A stretch of 63,744 bases of DNA, the filler included. It is 12 parts of 12 records of this genome, joined end to end, with 100 filler letters (N's around TTAATTAATTAA, not from the genome) between each part and the next. Parts side by side here need not be neighbours in the genome. Positions count along the whole stretch, not along the records: positions 27,581 to 34,001 come from SRR15195285_4083; 11 more parts are not named here. The stretch is one strand, 5' to 3'. This document shows, in pieces, positions 27,581-30,538 of this stretch. Numbering within the stretch: the stretch's first letter is position 1; each line of letters opens with the position of its first letter. The notes beneath the pieces are model-generated. The model saw nothing but the letters and a program-made list of their open reading frames with translations, was not told the DNA's origin and did no database searches. A program made the position numbers and the translations under genes.

Positions 27581-30538
27581 CGTGATATTGAGCAGCTCCG
27601 GATATTGCACAGGCCACGGCGAGCCCGGGTACAGCAGCTCTTTCACACGGCTACTGAGCGAATTGTTCGCGGTGCTTTTGCACATAGACAGCTGCCAACC
27701 CAGACCCCGATCGTCGAGGTCAATCGCAGGGCCGGGAATGACATTGGCGAAATGGTTGTTGCGCACGCGGTTGCGCCGCCCGCCCCCAAGAAGCATGCCT
27801 GTTGCAAAATGCACTTGTCTCACTTTCCTCCTCTGTTTGTCCAGATCCTGTCTTGGCATATCTTCGAACAACATCGCAAAATGACACAAAGGAGAGCTTT
27901 TCGTACCTTTTGCAGCACCGTCAATGGTCGAGTCTTCGATGACCCAGCCTGACATCTGGTCGTCCAGGTAGCTGTAACATGCACCCCAACCAGGGAATCA
28001 GGCACAGGCAACGTACGACATGCACGAGTCGACTAATCATCAGCTATTGTGAGAGTGAGAGTGAGAGTGAGAGTGAGAGGGTGTGCATTGTTTTGGCGAG
28101 TTCAGCATAGCCATGGCTCTGGTGAGGTTTTGACATACACGCTCCAGGAGCCGATGTTCTTGAAGACACCGTTGCGAAGGATATTACCCCTGTTCACCCA
28201 CGCCATGCCCTGCTGCCCGCAGGAATAAAAGGCGCCGCAGTCACCGCATTCGTAAACACAGGTGTCGAGCATGTTCCCATCAAAGAGGCATTGGCTACCA
28301 TCGCCAGCCACTGTGTCGGTCTGCCCCCAGGGCCATCCCTCGTTCCCACCACCAAGCATGCAGTTGTGCGGTCCATTGTGCACGCTGTTGTGGGAGTAGT
28401 TGTTCCCGACGCCTACGGAAAACGCCTCCTTTTCTGAGTTTTCCGCATGTTTGTCCCGAGCGTCTTGGTAAATGATCATTTTGAATTAAAATGGCGCAAA
28501 AGAAGGTGTTATTTTCGCACCATTCCAAAAAATTCCTGGCATGTACGTGCGCTTCCACAGCGAGAAGTTTGCGATGTGATTGCCCGTCACATATGCGTGC
28601 CCAGGCGTGAGGGAGTGAGCATCGCCTCCCGCAACGCGCACGCCGCTGCAGCCGACTGAGTAGACGCGCGAGCTGTCCACACCCGACTCTGTTCCGATCA
28701 TGACGACTCCGTGTTGCCCATGACCTGTGCGAAACGCCATTCAATTTCCCTTATGTTTATCTCGAGCGTGTCTGGGCAAATCGTCAATTTTTCGCAGGAC
28801 AATATATTGAGAACAAATGGCGTGTCACACCTGAGATTTCACAGTCCTCCACACGAACGCCGGTCACATCGTTTGCAACGAGCCCATTGCCCCTGGAGTG
28901 GTGGATGCCAAGCCCGCGCAATGTGATGTGGGACGCCCCGCTGACGTTTGTCGCGAAAAGCTTCTGCGTTATGTATGGGCCGTCCCCATCCGCCCTGCGG
29001 AACACGCATCTCCTTTTGAGTGTTTTCTATGTTTGTCCCGAGCCTGTCTTGGTCAAATGATCATTTTCAGTATAGAATGGCGCAAGAGGATGCGAGTTTA
29101 CGCACCACTGATCGAGCGGAACGGGCGGGTAAAAGTAGAGCGTGTGGCTGACCTCGTCGATGTAAAACTCAGCAGGTGCGTCGAGCTCACAGAGTAGATT
29201 ACTCCCGTAGTACTTTGCCTGGCCGACGGTGAACGGATGCCACCACGTCGGCGGCGGCGGTGGTGGCGGGGGTGGTGCTGGCGGCGGCGGTGGAGCGACA
29301 CAGTGCCCGTCCTTCCAAGCACATCGTCTCCCCTGCGCCGCGCACTTTGCCTGCCCTGAGATCTTTTCACAGTGTTCCCCGAATGTAGCCGATGCAACCT
29401 TCTGCTTGTCGTTGCCGCATGCCAGTGTTCCCGGAATGCCGCTGGTCGAGTTGCTGCTCGCGATTCTCCAGGTAGCGCCGCTGTCAGACGACACTTGCAG
29501 GATGTTCTGCGTGGCGATGCTCCACTTTTTGCAGGCGCCTTTCAGCGGGTCTTGTGGGCTGCCTGTGGCAACGGCGTGCACGCGGAAGGTGTCGCTGGCT
29601 GTCCCGTTGCACACAACAGTCGGCTTTGACCACCCTTGGCCGGCCTGCGCCGTAATCTTGATCACCCAGACACCGTCAGTCGCACCGAGTGGCGGGTCCG
29701 TCACGGGTGTAGCTGGTGTGGACCGTTGCGCTGCATCCGCTGCAGGGTAGTCTACAATGGTGAGGTTGACCTCTGCACCAGAGGCCGAGATGTTGATGCG
29801 ATTCCAGGTGTCGCTCCAGTCGTACTTGGAATAGCTGTGCAGCCAAGGCTCTGTCTCCGCTGCCCATTTGGCGATGCGAGACACAACCGCCGGGTCCTTC
29901 ACGCTGAAACCGTTCGGCCCTCCGATTTGAACCTTCTGCCACACATACCTGCCTGTCGCGTTGTCCACGTTTGGCCAGCGTGCGAGGACCATCGAATCGT
30001 TGGAAAAGACCAGGCCAGCTTTGGCGAACCCGGTACAATTGCCGCCGCAGTCACCGCCTGCTGTGATGGAGCCGTAGTCCACCATGAGCGCAGAGAGGTC
30101 GGCCTTGATAATACCAGGGTGCCCAGCCCACGGTGTAAACGCAGACTTCGGGACCTGGATCCCGGCTGAGACTACCACTGGGCCGCGTGACGAGTCGGCC
30201 TCGTAGACGATCGGCCGGCCCGGGCTGCCGGAGTCCTGTGCCTGCAGCTCCAGCGGTGCATATGTGCCAGCGCCGATGACCACCCTGAACCTACGCTGAC
30301 CGCCATTACTCTTGGCGCGCAGCACACGCAGATGGTTGCGAGCAGCTTCAATGGTCGGAAATGGAGAGGCGGCACTGCCAGCCGTGGCTGTCTCTGCTGC
30401 GCCGGCGCTGACGTATATCACCTGCTCCGCCGCTGAGCCGCCTGCAGCTGCGTGCTGGGCGAGCTGGCTTGCGTGCAGCGGCACCACGACACTGCTGAGC
30501 GCCAGCAAGGCGCCGAGCATGACGGATAGCGCGAGCAT
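27581..30538 (-). CDS. Secreted right-handed parallel beta-helix protein (putative CAZyme), 3' partial, 5 introns
   Basis: Signal peptide; IYVS...GS.ASPF.TI..A; LARWPN; YDWSD; NLLCELDAP.EFYID; spliced beta-helix coils VGNNYSHN.VHNGPH, DCGAFY, VYLDDQMSG. Confidence 0.85.
27799..27906 (-). mobile_element. Introner-like intron, copy D (108 bp, most diverged)
   Basis: GTACGAAAA...CCAAGACAGGATCTGGACAAAC...TTTTGCAACAG. Removing it restores GAAK-G-MLLGGG. Confidence 0.7.
28413..28520 (-). mobile_element. Introner-like intron, copy C (108 bp)
   Basis: GTGCGAAAA...TTGCGCCATT...AAAATGATCATTTACCAAGACGCTCGGGACAAACAT...GGCGTTTTCCGTAG. Removing it restores IFWN-G-VGNNY. Confidence 0.85.
28725..28830 (-). 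mobile_element. Introner-like intron, copy B (106 bp)
   Basis: GTGTGACACGCCATT...CCCAGACACGCTCGAGATAAACAT...AATGGCGTTTCGCACAG. Removing it restores EIS-G-HGQHG. Confidence 0.8.
28995..29105 (-). mobile_element. Introner-like intron, copy A (111 bp)
   Basis: GTGCGTAAACTCGCATC...TTGCGCCATT...AAAATGATCATTTGACCAAGACAGGCTCGGGACAAACAT...GATGCGTGTTCCGCAG. Removing it restores LDQ-W-ADGDG. Confidence 0.85.

What the first reader, a model, noticed from the sequence alone, without database searches (positions are those of the whole stretch)
27799..29105. Introner-like family: four related ~108-bp introns with terminal inverted repeats in one gene
Seen: four of this gene's five introns (111, 106, 108, 108 bp) share the core CCAAGACAGGCTCGGGACAAAC. 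Copies A and C also share TTGCGCCATT and AAAATGATCATTT. The ends are imperfectly complementary (A: GTGCGTAAACTCGCATC..GATGCGTGTTCCGCAG; B: GTGTGACACGCCATT..AATGGCGTTTCGCACAG). All sit at exonic G|G junctions and have A-rich rather than pyrimidine-rich 3' halves. Known: introners in Micromonas and Aureococcus are short non-autonomous DNA transposons that carry or co-opt splice sites. Inference: this is an intron-generating element with copies of different ages, and its end pairing could bring the splice sites together. I did not see the core in the other contigs' introns, so insertion is clustered or the bin is mixed.
Basis: partly seen in the sequence, partly recalled or inferred. Interest (0 to 1): 0.8.

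Follow-up and report, generated by a model that had tools for sequence, protein, structure and literature searches.

The report
Transposon-made introns in a picozoan gene
Four of the five introns in this marine protist gene are copies of one very abundant 111-base mobile element with mirrored ends, a clear case of a transposon creating introns, apparently in a phylum (Picozoa) where this has not been described.

Summary
Four minus-strand introns (A 28995-29105, B 28725-28830, C 28413-28520, D 27799-27906) are homologous: each is recovered at E<=5.5e-6 by a model built from the other three, and at E 3e-21 to 2e-8 by a model built only from foreign copies. These 241 kb hold 375 matches. Similarity stops exactly at the intron ends. 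The element is about 111 bp with inverted ends of about 25 nt. It reads G|GTGCG...CGCAG|G on the coding strand whichever way its core points (48 forward, 7 reverse of 66 full copies). A poly-A RNA contig skips B, C and the unrelated fifth intron. Homologues of about 60% identity run unbroken across sites A-C. Proteins on two window contigs are closest to Picozoa single-cell genomes. Not settled: whether the flanking GG is a 2-bp target duplication, what mobilises the element, and whether end pairing helps splicing. Verdict: a real introner family, a new member of a known kind, of moderate interest.

The parts
28995..29105 (-). Intron A, 111 nt. Family copy in forward orientation, phase 2, inside a Trp codon (TG|G). 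It holds the exact 22-nt core at 29031-29052 and inverted ends at about 29088-29105 and 28995-29013.
   Evidence: A model built only from foreign copies scores it E 2.9e-21. Identity to that consensus is 0.81.
28725..28830 (-). Intron B, 106 nt. Diverged family copy, phase 1, inside a Gly codon (G|GT). It has the strongest end-to-end stem of the four.
   Evidence: E 5.5e-6 when left out; E 1.2e-8; z -2.86. Skipped in poly-A RNA contig record 18 of X17.
28413..28520 (-). Intron C, 108 nt. Family copy, phase 1, inside a Gly codon (G|GC). 79% identical to A.
   Evidence: (E 7.9e-20; 0.85 to consensus). Skipped in X17 record 18.
27799..27906 (-). Intron D, 108 nt. Diverged family copy, phase 1, inside a Gly codon (G|GC).
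   Evidence: E 1.7e-6 when left out; E 2.3e-8; 0.68. Its splicing is not directly shown: X17 record 18 starts at its edge.
27972..28138 (-). Intron E, 167 nt, GTATGT..ACAG. Not a family member. It contains a (GAGAGT)n run.
   Evidence: Frame continuity. The X17 joint 27971->28141 with 2 letters between gives a net skip of 167. No nhmmer hit.
29106..30598 (-). Exon 1 (1493 nt) from the first ATG. Signal-peptide-like start, Cys-rich and Pro-rich linker, then the start of the beta-helix part.
   Evidence: Homologues.
27581..28994 (-). Exons 2-6 (28831-28994, 28521-28724, 28139-28412, 27907-27971, 27581-27798) with the five introns between them. The gene runs off the contig end at 27581.
   Evidence: The spliced reading frame of 806 codons has no stop. 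It is colinear with intron-less bacterial beta-helix proteins over all five junctions. Weak Pfam Beta_helix match in exon 2.

Best explanation
The four introns are independent insertions of a short (about 111 bp), non-autonomous, MITE-like DNA element, an introner, that is very abundant in a marine protist lineage affiliated with Picozoa.

The element proper is TGCG...CGCA, with inverted ends of about 25 nt and a well-conserved asymmetric core. It lies between G's, so the coding strand reads exon-G|GTGCG...CGCAG|G-exon. Each splice dinucleotide is therefore half flank (G) and half element (T, or A). Splicing gives back the original ...GG... message, so the protein is unchanged.

Because the ends mirror each other, the 5' splice site, the short T-run and the 3' CAG are offered in either orientation of the core. 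Both orientations occur, with a strong excess of one.

Shown: family membership, copy abundance, inverted ends, boundaries, coding-strand bias, colinearity of the spliced protein, and absence of B and C from a poly-A RNA contig.

Inferred: DNA-level cut-and-paste or copy insertion by an unseen transposase, a 2-bp GG target duplication, and selection against the reverse orientation.
For: Family.
- Leave-one-out recovery within the window.
- A model built from 40 foreign copies finds A-D at E 2.9e-21, 1.2e-8, 7.9e-20 and 2.3e-8.

Abundance.
- There are 353 nhmmer hits with the window model and 375 with the foreign-copy model in their 241,018 bases. That is up to 10 hits per contig and 17.5% of the bases.
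- In runs that hold this gene, summed contig depth over A's core is 310-637 in X1, X17 and X5, and 34 in X15. Beside it in X1 the depth is 4.2.
- Control: the same pattern finds 3 core-only chance matches in 596 Gb of prokaryote genomes and 0 in viral contigs.

Boundaries.
- BLASTN matches between the foreign contigs and the window are confined to 28994-29106 and 28411-28521.
- Exon flanks of 55 foreign and 4 window copies match nothing else, apart from flanks of L087 that are themselves element sequence.

Anatomy.
- Of 66 full copies with flanks, 48 are GT..AG, 7 are CT..AC (that is, GT..AG on the other strand with the core inverted) and 11 are other.
- The last exon base is G in 95% and the first downstream base is G in 75% of forward copies.
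- Over all ends: G|GT 90 and C|CT 12 of 126; AG 123 and AC 15 of 144.
- A copy's own arms pair better than arms of different copies: -21.6 against -18.3 kcal/mol, permutation p 2e-4.

Introns of genes.
- After removal of a copy, the frame through the junction is longer on the GT..AG strand in 38 copies and on the other strand in 11 (3 ties; p 1.4e-4).
- 84 of 115 adjacent pairs stay open through both junctions, against 61 of 115 with displaced boundaries (Fisher p 0.0026).
- The spliced window protein (806 aa, no stop) aligns without gain or loss at all five junctions to 10 homologues chosen from the 38: 8 beta-helix (PF13229) proteins, three of them named from bacterial genomes, and the long environmental P0031 and P0035.

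RNA.
- X17 poly-A contig record 18 skips B, C and E at my coordinates.

Not conserved positions.
- Metagenome ORFs P0034 and P0035 (about 60% identity) run unbroken across sites A, B and C. P0026 and P0028 cross A.
- P0021, P0022 and P0023 break 11-27 residues upstream of A.
- The tail of P0030 is a read-through of a family copy at another site (E 1e-9).
- A and C are no closer to each other (79%) than to foreign copies (79% and 83%). They are separate arrivals, not a local duplication.
Against: - No locus-specific target-site duplication. Only the invariant G|G...G|G is seen, so a 2-bp GG duplication cannot be told from insertion at G^G without duplication.
- No empty site was found and no nested insertion.
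- No longer element or transposase with these ends was seen in the window or the 120 contigs.
- No whole genome is held. Copy number in this organism's own genome is therefore unknown, and the other 11 window contigs (about 57 kb) hold none.
- The tree of copies is unresolved, and a single origin of the reverse-oriented copies is not rejected (p-AU 0.615). They could descend from one inverted master rather than from two-way insertion.
- Crude excision of all copies restored a region-wide frame in only 3 of 29 multi-copy regions.
- An RNA-library contig (X5 record 24) retains B and C. This may be pre-mRNA or DNA carry-over.
- The X17 contig is about 96% identical to the window. Strictly, it could come from a relative whose gene lacks these introns.
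Confidence: 0.75

Rival explanations
1. The family spreads through RNA. The excised intron reverse-splices into other transcripts at G|G sites and is copied back into DNA. The inverted ends are then an RNA hairpin, not transposase binding sites.
For: Copy ends coincide exactly with GT..AG. No locus-specific duplication is seen. There is a strong excess of one orientation (48 to 7) and a coding-strand bias. The arms of one copy are more complementary than arms of different copies. 13 of 55 copies carry TGCG...TGCA ends, which still pair as G-U in RNA.
Against: Inverted ends of about 25 nt are the hallmark of DNA elements. Copies with the core inverted but the same G|GT..AG|G ends exist (7 of 66; about 11-12% of all ends), and reverse splicing cannot make these without an extra inversion. 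Three of the four window copies fold no better than shuffles. The TGCA ends are equally explained by CpG decay.
Confidence: 0.13
2. The introns are older than the element. A MITE landed inside pre-existing introns, so the element did not create them.
For: Secondary insertion of transposons into introns is common, and the published surveys filter for it (PMC12130899, methods passage seen).
Against: Intron length equals element length: 106-111 nt against a 111-nt model. Similarity runs to the very first and last intron bases. Homologues at about 60% identity have no interruption at sites A-C. Intron-less bacterial homologues are colinear.
Confidence: 0.05
3. Local origin only. The four introns arose by duplication inside this repeat-rich beta-helix gene, or they share a functional intronic RNA, and they are not mobile.
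For: All four copies lie within 1.3 kb of one repeat-protein gene, and none lies in the other 57 kb of the window.
Against: There are hundreds of copies in unrelated contigs. There is no exon similarity beside the copies. A and C are as close to foreign copies as to each other. No Rfam family matches anywhere in the window.
Confidence: 0.02

Closest known systems
Micromonas pusilla introner elements (family IE1), as summarised in the review PMC11282704 (passages seen)
   Same: Short MITE-like elements with terminal inverted repeats. They make spliceosomal introns in large numbers. Part of a splice site comes from the duplicated target, and the mRNA is restored.
   Different: IE1 has a 3-nt target duplication (TCA in the review's example), carries its own 5' site and takes only the 3' AG from the duplication. 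Here both sites are half flank and half element, the only repeated flank is GG, and the element is spliced in both orientations. There is no sequence similarity that I could test.
Acanthoeca sp. family 4 and Florenciella sp. family 2 introners from Tara Oceans MAGs (PMC9860276, Fig. 2D/E legend and methods passages seen)
   Same: The Acanthoeca example is 109 bp with clear inverted ends and no detectable target duplication. The Florenciella example takes both splice sites from the insertion site. Both come from uncultured marine protist MAGs, as this window appears to.
   Different: The host here is affiliated with Picozoa, not choanoflagellates or dictyochophytes. Their sequences are in figures and supplements that I could not see, so identity with a catalogued family is neither shown nor excluded.
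Aureococcus introners (PMC9860276 passages; Huff et al. 2016 recalled, not read)
   Same: DNA-transposon-like introners of a marine picoeukaryote, with many copies per gene.
   Different: The Aureococcus family shown has an 8-bp duplication and adds 12 nt to the transcript. Here nothing is added at any of the five junctions.
Euglenid nonconventional introns (review PMC11282704, passage seen)
   Same: Inverted ends that can pair in RNA and bring the intron ends together, a weak or absent polypyrimidine tract, and a suggested MITE origin.
   Different: Those have non-canonical borders. These are canonical GT..AG, and predicted end pairing is not more stable than in shuffles for 3 of 4 window copies.

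Membership tests
Introner (criteria of Gozashti et al., PMC9860276 / PMC12130899, methods passages seen) | At least four introns of one genome with significant mutual similarity | tested here: met
   Four introns in the window. Hundreds more lie in metagenome contigs. Whether these belong to the same genome is not testable, because no genome is held.
Introner | Similarity reaches the exon-intron boundaries but does not extend into exons; not explained by gene duplication | tested here: met
   BLASTN HSPs end at 28994/29106 and 28411/28521. Exon flanks have no other matches.
Introner | Copies are removed by splicing | tested here: inconclusive
   B and C are skipped in one poly-A RNA contig of a relative about 96% identical. 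A and D are not covered. One RNA-library contig retains B and C. The reading frame and colinearity support removal of all four.
Introner | Positions are lineage-specific (recent gain), not conserved in relatives | tested here: met
   P0034 and P0035 cross sites A-C unbroken. Other homologues break elsewhere. This assumes, as is usual, that metagenome gene calls are unspliced ORFs.
MITE-type (DNA transposon) introner | Terminal inverted repeats | tested here: met
   The consensus arms are complementary over about 25 nt. A copy's own arms pair better than cross arms.
MITE-type (DNA transposon) introner | Target-site duplication | tested here: inconclusive
   Only the invariant G|G...G|G is seen, with no locus-specific diagonal. 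No empty sites and no nested copies.
MITE-type (DNA transposon) introner | Autonomous partner with the same ends encoding a transposase | tested here: not met
   None in the window (terminal motif at chance level). No long-range end pairs among the 120 contigs. The data are short contigs, so absence is weak.
MITE-type (DNA transposon) introner | Insertion in both orientations, and copies outside genes | tested here: inconclusive
   Both core orientations occur (48 to 7), but one origin of the reverse set is not rejected. Genic against intergenic location cannot be called on unannotated contigs.

The most novel reading that the evidence does not exclude
This is an undescribed introner family of Picozoa, a phylum with no report of introners. 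The mirrored ends of a 111-bp element carry a complete set of splicing signals for both orientations. Insertion duplicates just GG, a target and duplication length not typical of the classical DNA-transposon superfamilies as I recall them. It has fragmented genes, including bacterial-type carbohydrate-active genes, into exons as short as 40-80 nt.
Probability: 0.3. Interest if true: 0.65.

Novelty: new member of a known kind. Interest (0 to 1): 0.5.

Why it matters
Introners are the only known way to gain introns in bursts. Each well-resolved family shows how a transposon can become harmless by being spliced.

This family is small, abundant and symmetric. Its ends supply T...A, and the flanking G's complete GT and AG, so one 111-bp unit could be tested for splicing in both orientations.

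It sits in an uncultured heterotrophic lineage, Picozoa, a relative of red algae, for which gene structure is essentially undescribed. No paper in the searchable library holds both 'Picozoa' and 'introner', and the Picozoa single-cell genome paper never uses the word intron.

The host gene and a second carrier (L083, a GH78 rhamnosidase-type gene) look bacterial in type. If they were acquired by transfer, every intron in them is a dated gain.

Tried and rejected
- Whole-genome copy count: no genome is held.
- Empty sites among the fetched contigs: none. Nested insertions that would reveal the target: none.
- Autonomous element: the terminal 14-mer with up to 3 mismatches is at chance level in the window (9 found, 8.1 expected). 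There were only 4 unpaired ends among the 375 hits, and none led to a long element.
- Tree of 59 copies: unresolved, with 0 of 56 inner branches strongly supported.
- Excising all copies from multi-copy contigs restored a region-wide frame in only 3 of 29. The boundaries were projected from partial hits, and other introns may intervene.
- Marginal family-like hit at window 1806-1849 (E 0.06): no frame is open across the putative 92-nt intron, so I dropped it.
- Rfam: no family at gathering score anywhere in the window. I did not pursue an intronic snoRNA reading of the ATGATCA and CTGA motifs.
- Viral contigs: 0 matches to the core. Prokaryote genomes: 3 matches, core only, at about the number expected by chance.
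- Literature: no paper holds the core or end motifs as text. A search for the prefix of the two GenBank-named contigs found nothing relevant.
With the stored homologue it returned only 'Paf1, Eukaryota'.
- Earlier findings of this scan: nothing on this genome or sequence.
- Parts of the gene without cover in the RNA runs say nothing either way.
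Full report
WHAT IS THERE

The window is 12 contigs joined by N spacers. The finding lies in contig 27581-34001, on the minus strand.

Reading the minus strand gives a gene that starts at 30598 and runs off the contig at 27581. It has six exons and five GT..AG introns:
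- A, 29105-28995, 111 nt.
- B, 28830-28725, 106 nt.
- C, 28520-28413, 108 nt.
- E, 28138-27972, 167 nt.
- D, 27906-27799, 108 nt.

With these borders the 806-codon frame has no stop. Starting E two bases earlier shifts the frame. A-D all sit at exonic G|G, whereas E does not.

IS THE SIMILARITY REAL?

A and C are 79% identical. The other pairs are 53-56% identical.

An nhmmer model built from any three of the introns finds the fourth in the 63.7-kb window at E 9e-13 (A), 5.5e-6 (B), 6e-12 (C) and 1.7e-6 (D). The next hit is at E>=0.7.

The 22-nt core with up to 3 mismatches is expected 0.00 times in shuffles. It is exact in A and has 2 mismatches in D. It has a 2-nt deletion in C and 4 mismatches in B.

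The 3' 45 nt of A-D are 36-40% A and 13-20% T. In E they are 11% A and 33% T.

IS IT A FAMILY BEYOND THIS GENE?

No whole genome is held, and the other 11 contigs of the window contain no copy. Outside the window the picture is different.

Metagenome contigs:
Of these, 106 come from one record set, 10 and 2 from two others, and 2 from a GenBank-named set.
- In their 241,018 bases the window-derived model finds 353 hits.
- A model built from 40 full-length foreign copies finds 375 hits. That is about 1.6 per kb and 17.5% of the bases, in a sample chosen for holding the core.
- This foreign-only model finds the window's A, C, B and D at E 2.9e-21, 7.9e-20, 1.2e-8 and 2.3e-8.

Public runs:
- The gene occurs in 19 of 23 listed runs from 15 studies, nearly all sea water.
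- When four of these were laid, summed contig depth over the core of intron A (bin 29024-29134) was 637, 34, 469 and 310. Beside it in the DNA run X1 the depth was about 4. Many other contigs of the same samples therefore carry the core at 90% identity or more.
- A second peak at 29246-29356 is the Pro-rich low-complexity stretch and means nothing.

Controls:
- The same pattern gives 0 hits in viral contigs.
- It gives 3 hits in 596 Gb of prokaryote genomes, about the number chance predicts. All three match the core only.

ANATOMY

The model consensus is 111 nt. Its first and last 25 nt or so are inverted repeats, and an asymmetric core lies between them.

Of the 375 hits, 67 cover the model end to end, and 66 of these have flanks:
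- 48 read GT..AG.
- 7 read CT..AC. On the other strand that is GT..AG with the core inverted.
- 11 read otherwise, partly because ends were projected from alignments.

In forward copies the last exon base is G in 95% and the first downstream base is G in 75%.

Over all hits that reach an end:
- At the 5' end, G|GT occurs 90 times and C|CT 12 times, of 126.
- At the 3' end, AG occurs 123 times (87 followed by G) and AC 15 times, of 144.

The coding strand thus reads G|GTGCG...CGCAG|G whichever way the core points. The outermost G of each end is not part of the mirrored element (TGCG...CGCA). It goes with the strand that is spliced.

The simplest reading is insertion at GG with a 2-bp duplication, so that each splice dinucleotide is half target and half element and splicing restores GG. 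I could not prove this:
- A position-by-position test shows no locus-specific duplication beyond the invariant G's.
- No empty site is present among the fetched contigs, and no nested insertion.
- Insertion of GT...AG at G^G without duplication fits equally, if the reverse copies descend from one master whose core was flipped by recombination between the arms. The tree cannot reject a single origin of the seven reverse copies (p-AU 0.615).

Five of the seven reverse copies carry GGCAAAA where the inverted consensus would read GGTAAAA, a possible cryptic donor. This fits selection on splicing as the cause of the 7-to-1 orientation bias, but that is inference.

ARE THE COPIES INTRONS OF GENES?

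The window gene:
- The spliced protein aligns to 10 homologues chosen from the 38: 8 beta-helix (PF13229) proteins, three of them named from bacterial genomes, and the two long environmental ones.
- It does so without gain or loss of residues at any of the five junctions.

The family at large:
- After removal of a copy, the frame through the junction is longer on the GT..AG strand in 38 copies, longer on the other strand in 11, and tied in 3 (p 1.4e-4).
- Of 115 adjacent pairs, 84 stay open through both junctions, against 61 with displaced borders (Fisher p 0.0026).
- A cruder test was mostly negative. Excising every copy from 29 multi-copy regions gave a region-wide frame in only 3. I attribute that to projected borders and to other introns, but it stands as a result against.

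Spacing:
- The stretches between neighbouring copies are most often 40-80 nt, with a median of 129 nt.

RNA

A 671-letter contig of an oligo-dT library (X17 record 18, about 96% identical to the window) joins three pairs of positions:
- 27971 to 28141, with two letters between.
- 28413 to 28523, with one letter between.
- 28723 to 28830.

These are exactly introns E, C and B. The contig begins at the edge of D and ends before A, so A and D are not tested.

Against this, a contig of a metatranscriptome library (X5 record 24) runs unbroken over 28093-28867 and so retains C and B. The tool warns that such libraries can hold DNA.

The DNA run X1 holds the gene with all introns and shows no joined form.

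ARE THE POSITIONS CONSERVED?

The junctions lie after residues 497 (A), 552 (B), 620 (C), 711 (E) and 733 (D). I compared 16 environmental homologues of exon 1 with the spliced protein:
- P0034 (its residues 262-536 align to window residues 458-712) and P0035 (431-708 to 455-729) cross sites A, B and C unbroken, at about 60% identity.
- P0026 and P0028 cross site A.
- P0021, P0022 and P0023 lose similarity 27, 11 and 20 residues before site A and end in unrelated tails.
- P0032 and P0033 break at a place where the window has no intron.
- Residues 303-327 of P0030 are a read-through of a family copy (69% over 26 residues, E 1e-9).

If these calls are unspliced ORFs, as metagenome gene calls normally are, related genes carry interruptions at other places and none at A-C.

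A and C are no closer to each other (79%) than to foreign copies (79% and 83%). They arrived separately. Identity to the foreign consensus is 0.81 (A), 0.85 (C), 0.66 (B) and 0.68 (D), against a median of 0.82 for foreign copies. This fits different ages.

WHOSE GENOME?

- Other window contigs encode eukaryotic proteins: calpain, diacylglycerol kinase, Paf1 and an ANF-receptor domain.
- The Paf1 ORF (52125-53639) is 90% identical to P0001, the representative of a cluster that includes a EukProt entry of Picozoa sp. COSAG02.
- Exon 1 of the host gene is 63% identical to another COSAG02 protein.
- A rhamnosidase-type gene on element-rich contig L083 is 63% identical to a COSAG01 protein.
- The finding's contig is not a compositional outlier. 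Its tetranucleotide correlation with the rest is 0.94, against 0.96 for the Paf1 contig.

I therefore favour clustered insertion over a mixed bin, and a picozoan host with moderate confidence.

END PAIRING

Minimum-energy folds pair the two ends in A, B and D. Only B is more stable than shuffles (z -2.86). A, C and D have z -0.3 to -0.7.

Across 59 copies, a copy's own arms pair better than arms from different copies (-21.6 against -18.3 kcal/mol, p 2e-4). That shows the arms change together. It is expected for transposase-bound ends and subfamilies as well as for an RNA stem.

COMPARISON WITH WHAT IS KNOWN

- Introners with inverted ends, with or without detectable duplications, and with splice sites carried, co-opted or shared with the target, are described for many marine protists, including Tara MAGs (PMC9860276, passages; PMC12130899, passages; review PMC11282704, passages).
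- The published Acanthoeca example (109 bp, inverted ends, no duplication) and the Florenciella example (both sites taken from the insertion site) are the closest in design.
- That survey included 520 Tara genomes, and the Tara set holds Picozoa MAGs (PMC9903769, passages). This family may therefore already sit in supplementary tables that I could not open.
- In the searchable library no paper holds both 'Picozoa' and 'introner', none holds the core or end motifs, and the Picozoa single-cell paper does not mention introns (PMC8599508, find).
- Huff et al. 2016 is cited from memory only.

VERDICT

It is a new member of a known kind. The design is neat, with symmetric ends and half-and-half splice sites at GG, and the host phylum is probably new for introners.

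The transposition chemistry, the partner enzyme and any role of RNA end pairing remain open. Interest 0.5.

Noticed in passing
window 27581-30598 (-); locus L083:1687-4815 (-): The host gene's named relatives are bacterial right-handed beta-helix proteins (Planctomycetota, Verrucomicrobiota; 26-31% identity). Another element-rich contig carries a bacterial-type GH78 alpha-L-rhamnosidase. Both may be transferred carbohydrate-active genes that gained all their introns afterwards.
   Followed up: partly
window 29055-29066 (intron A) and the matching place in intron C: A 12-nt perfect palindrome (AAATGATCATTT) lies left of the core. In the foreign consensus the centre reads CGATCA. The ancestral form may have been a longer CGATCG-centred palindrome eroded by CpG decay. 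It could be a protein-binding site.
   Followed up: no
window 30573-30589 / 30607-30623: A perfect 17-nt inverted repeat with a 17-nt spacer brackets the first ATG (30598) of the host gene (pair I3).
   Followed up: no
window 28041-28089 (inside intron E): A (GAGAGT)n microsatellite lies in the only non-family intron. The read-laying tool skipped it as a repeat.
   Followed up: no
window 29246-29293: The Pro-rich linker (GGCGGN repeats on the + strand) attracts hundreds of unrelated contigs when runs are laid (depth 590-910). This is a low-complexity artefact, not a repeat family.
   Followed up: partly
window 53876-60241: One open frame of 2153 codons with ankyrin repeats fills this whole contig. 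Its tetranucleotide profile fits the other contigs least well (r 0.71).
   Followed up: no
window 1783-1874 (-): A GT..AG stretch of 92 nt gives a marginal match to the 5' half of the family model (E 0.06). No frame is open across it, so it is probably chance.
   Followed up: yes
window 32243-33097 (+): The neighbouring gene on the same contig has a CAP-Gly domain match that stops at the ORF end, at profile position 42 of 65. Another, non-family intron probably starts near 33097.
   Followed up: no
loci L044, L068, L087, L059 and others: A subset of copies has GTGAGT...CCTCAG ends instead of GTGCGA...CGCAG. Both arms have changed together towards stronger splice-site consensus (TGAG/CTCA in 5 of 12 TGAG copies).
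   Followed up: partly
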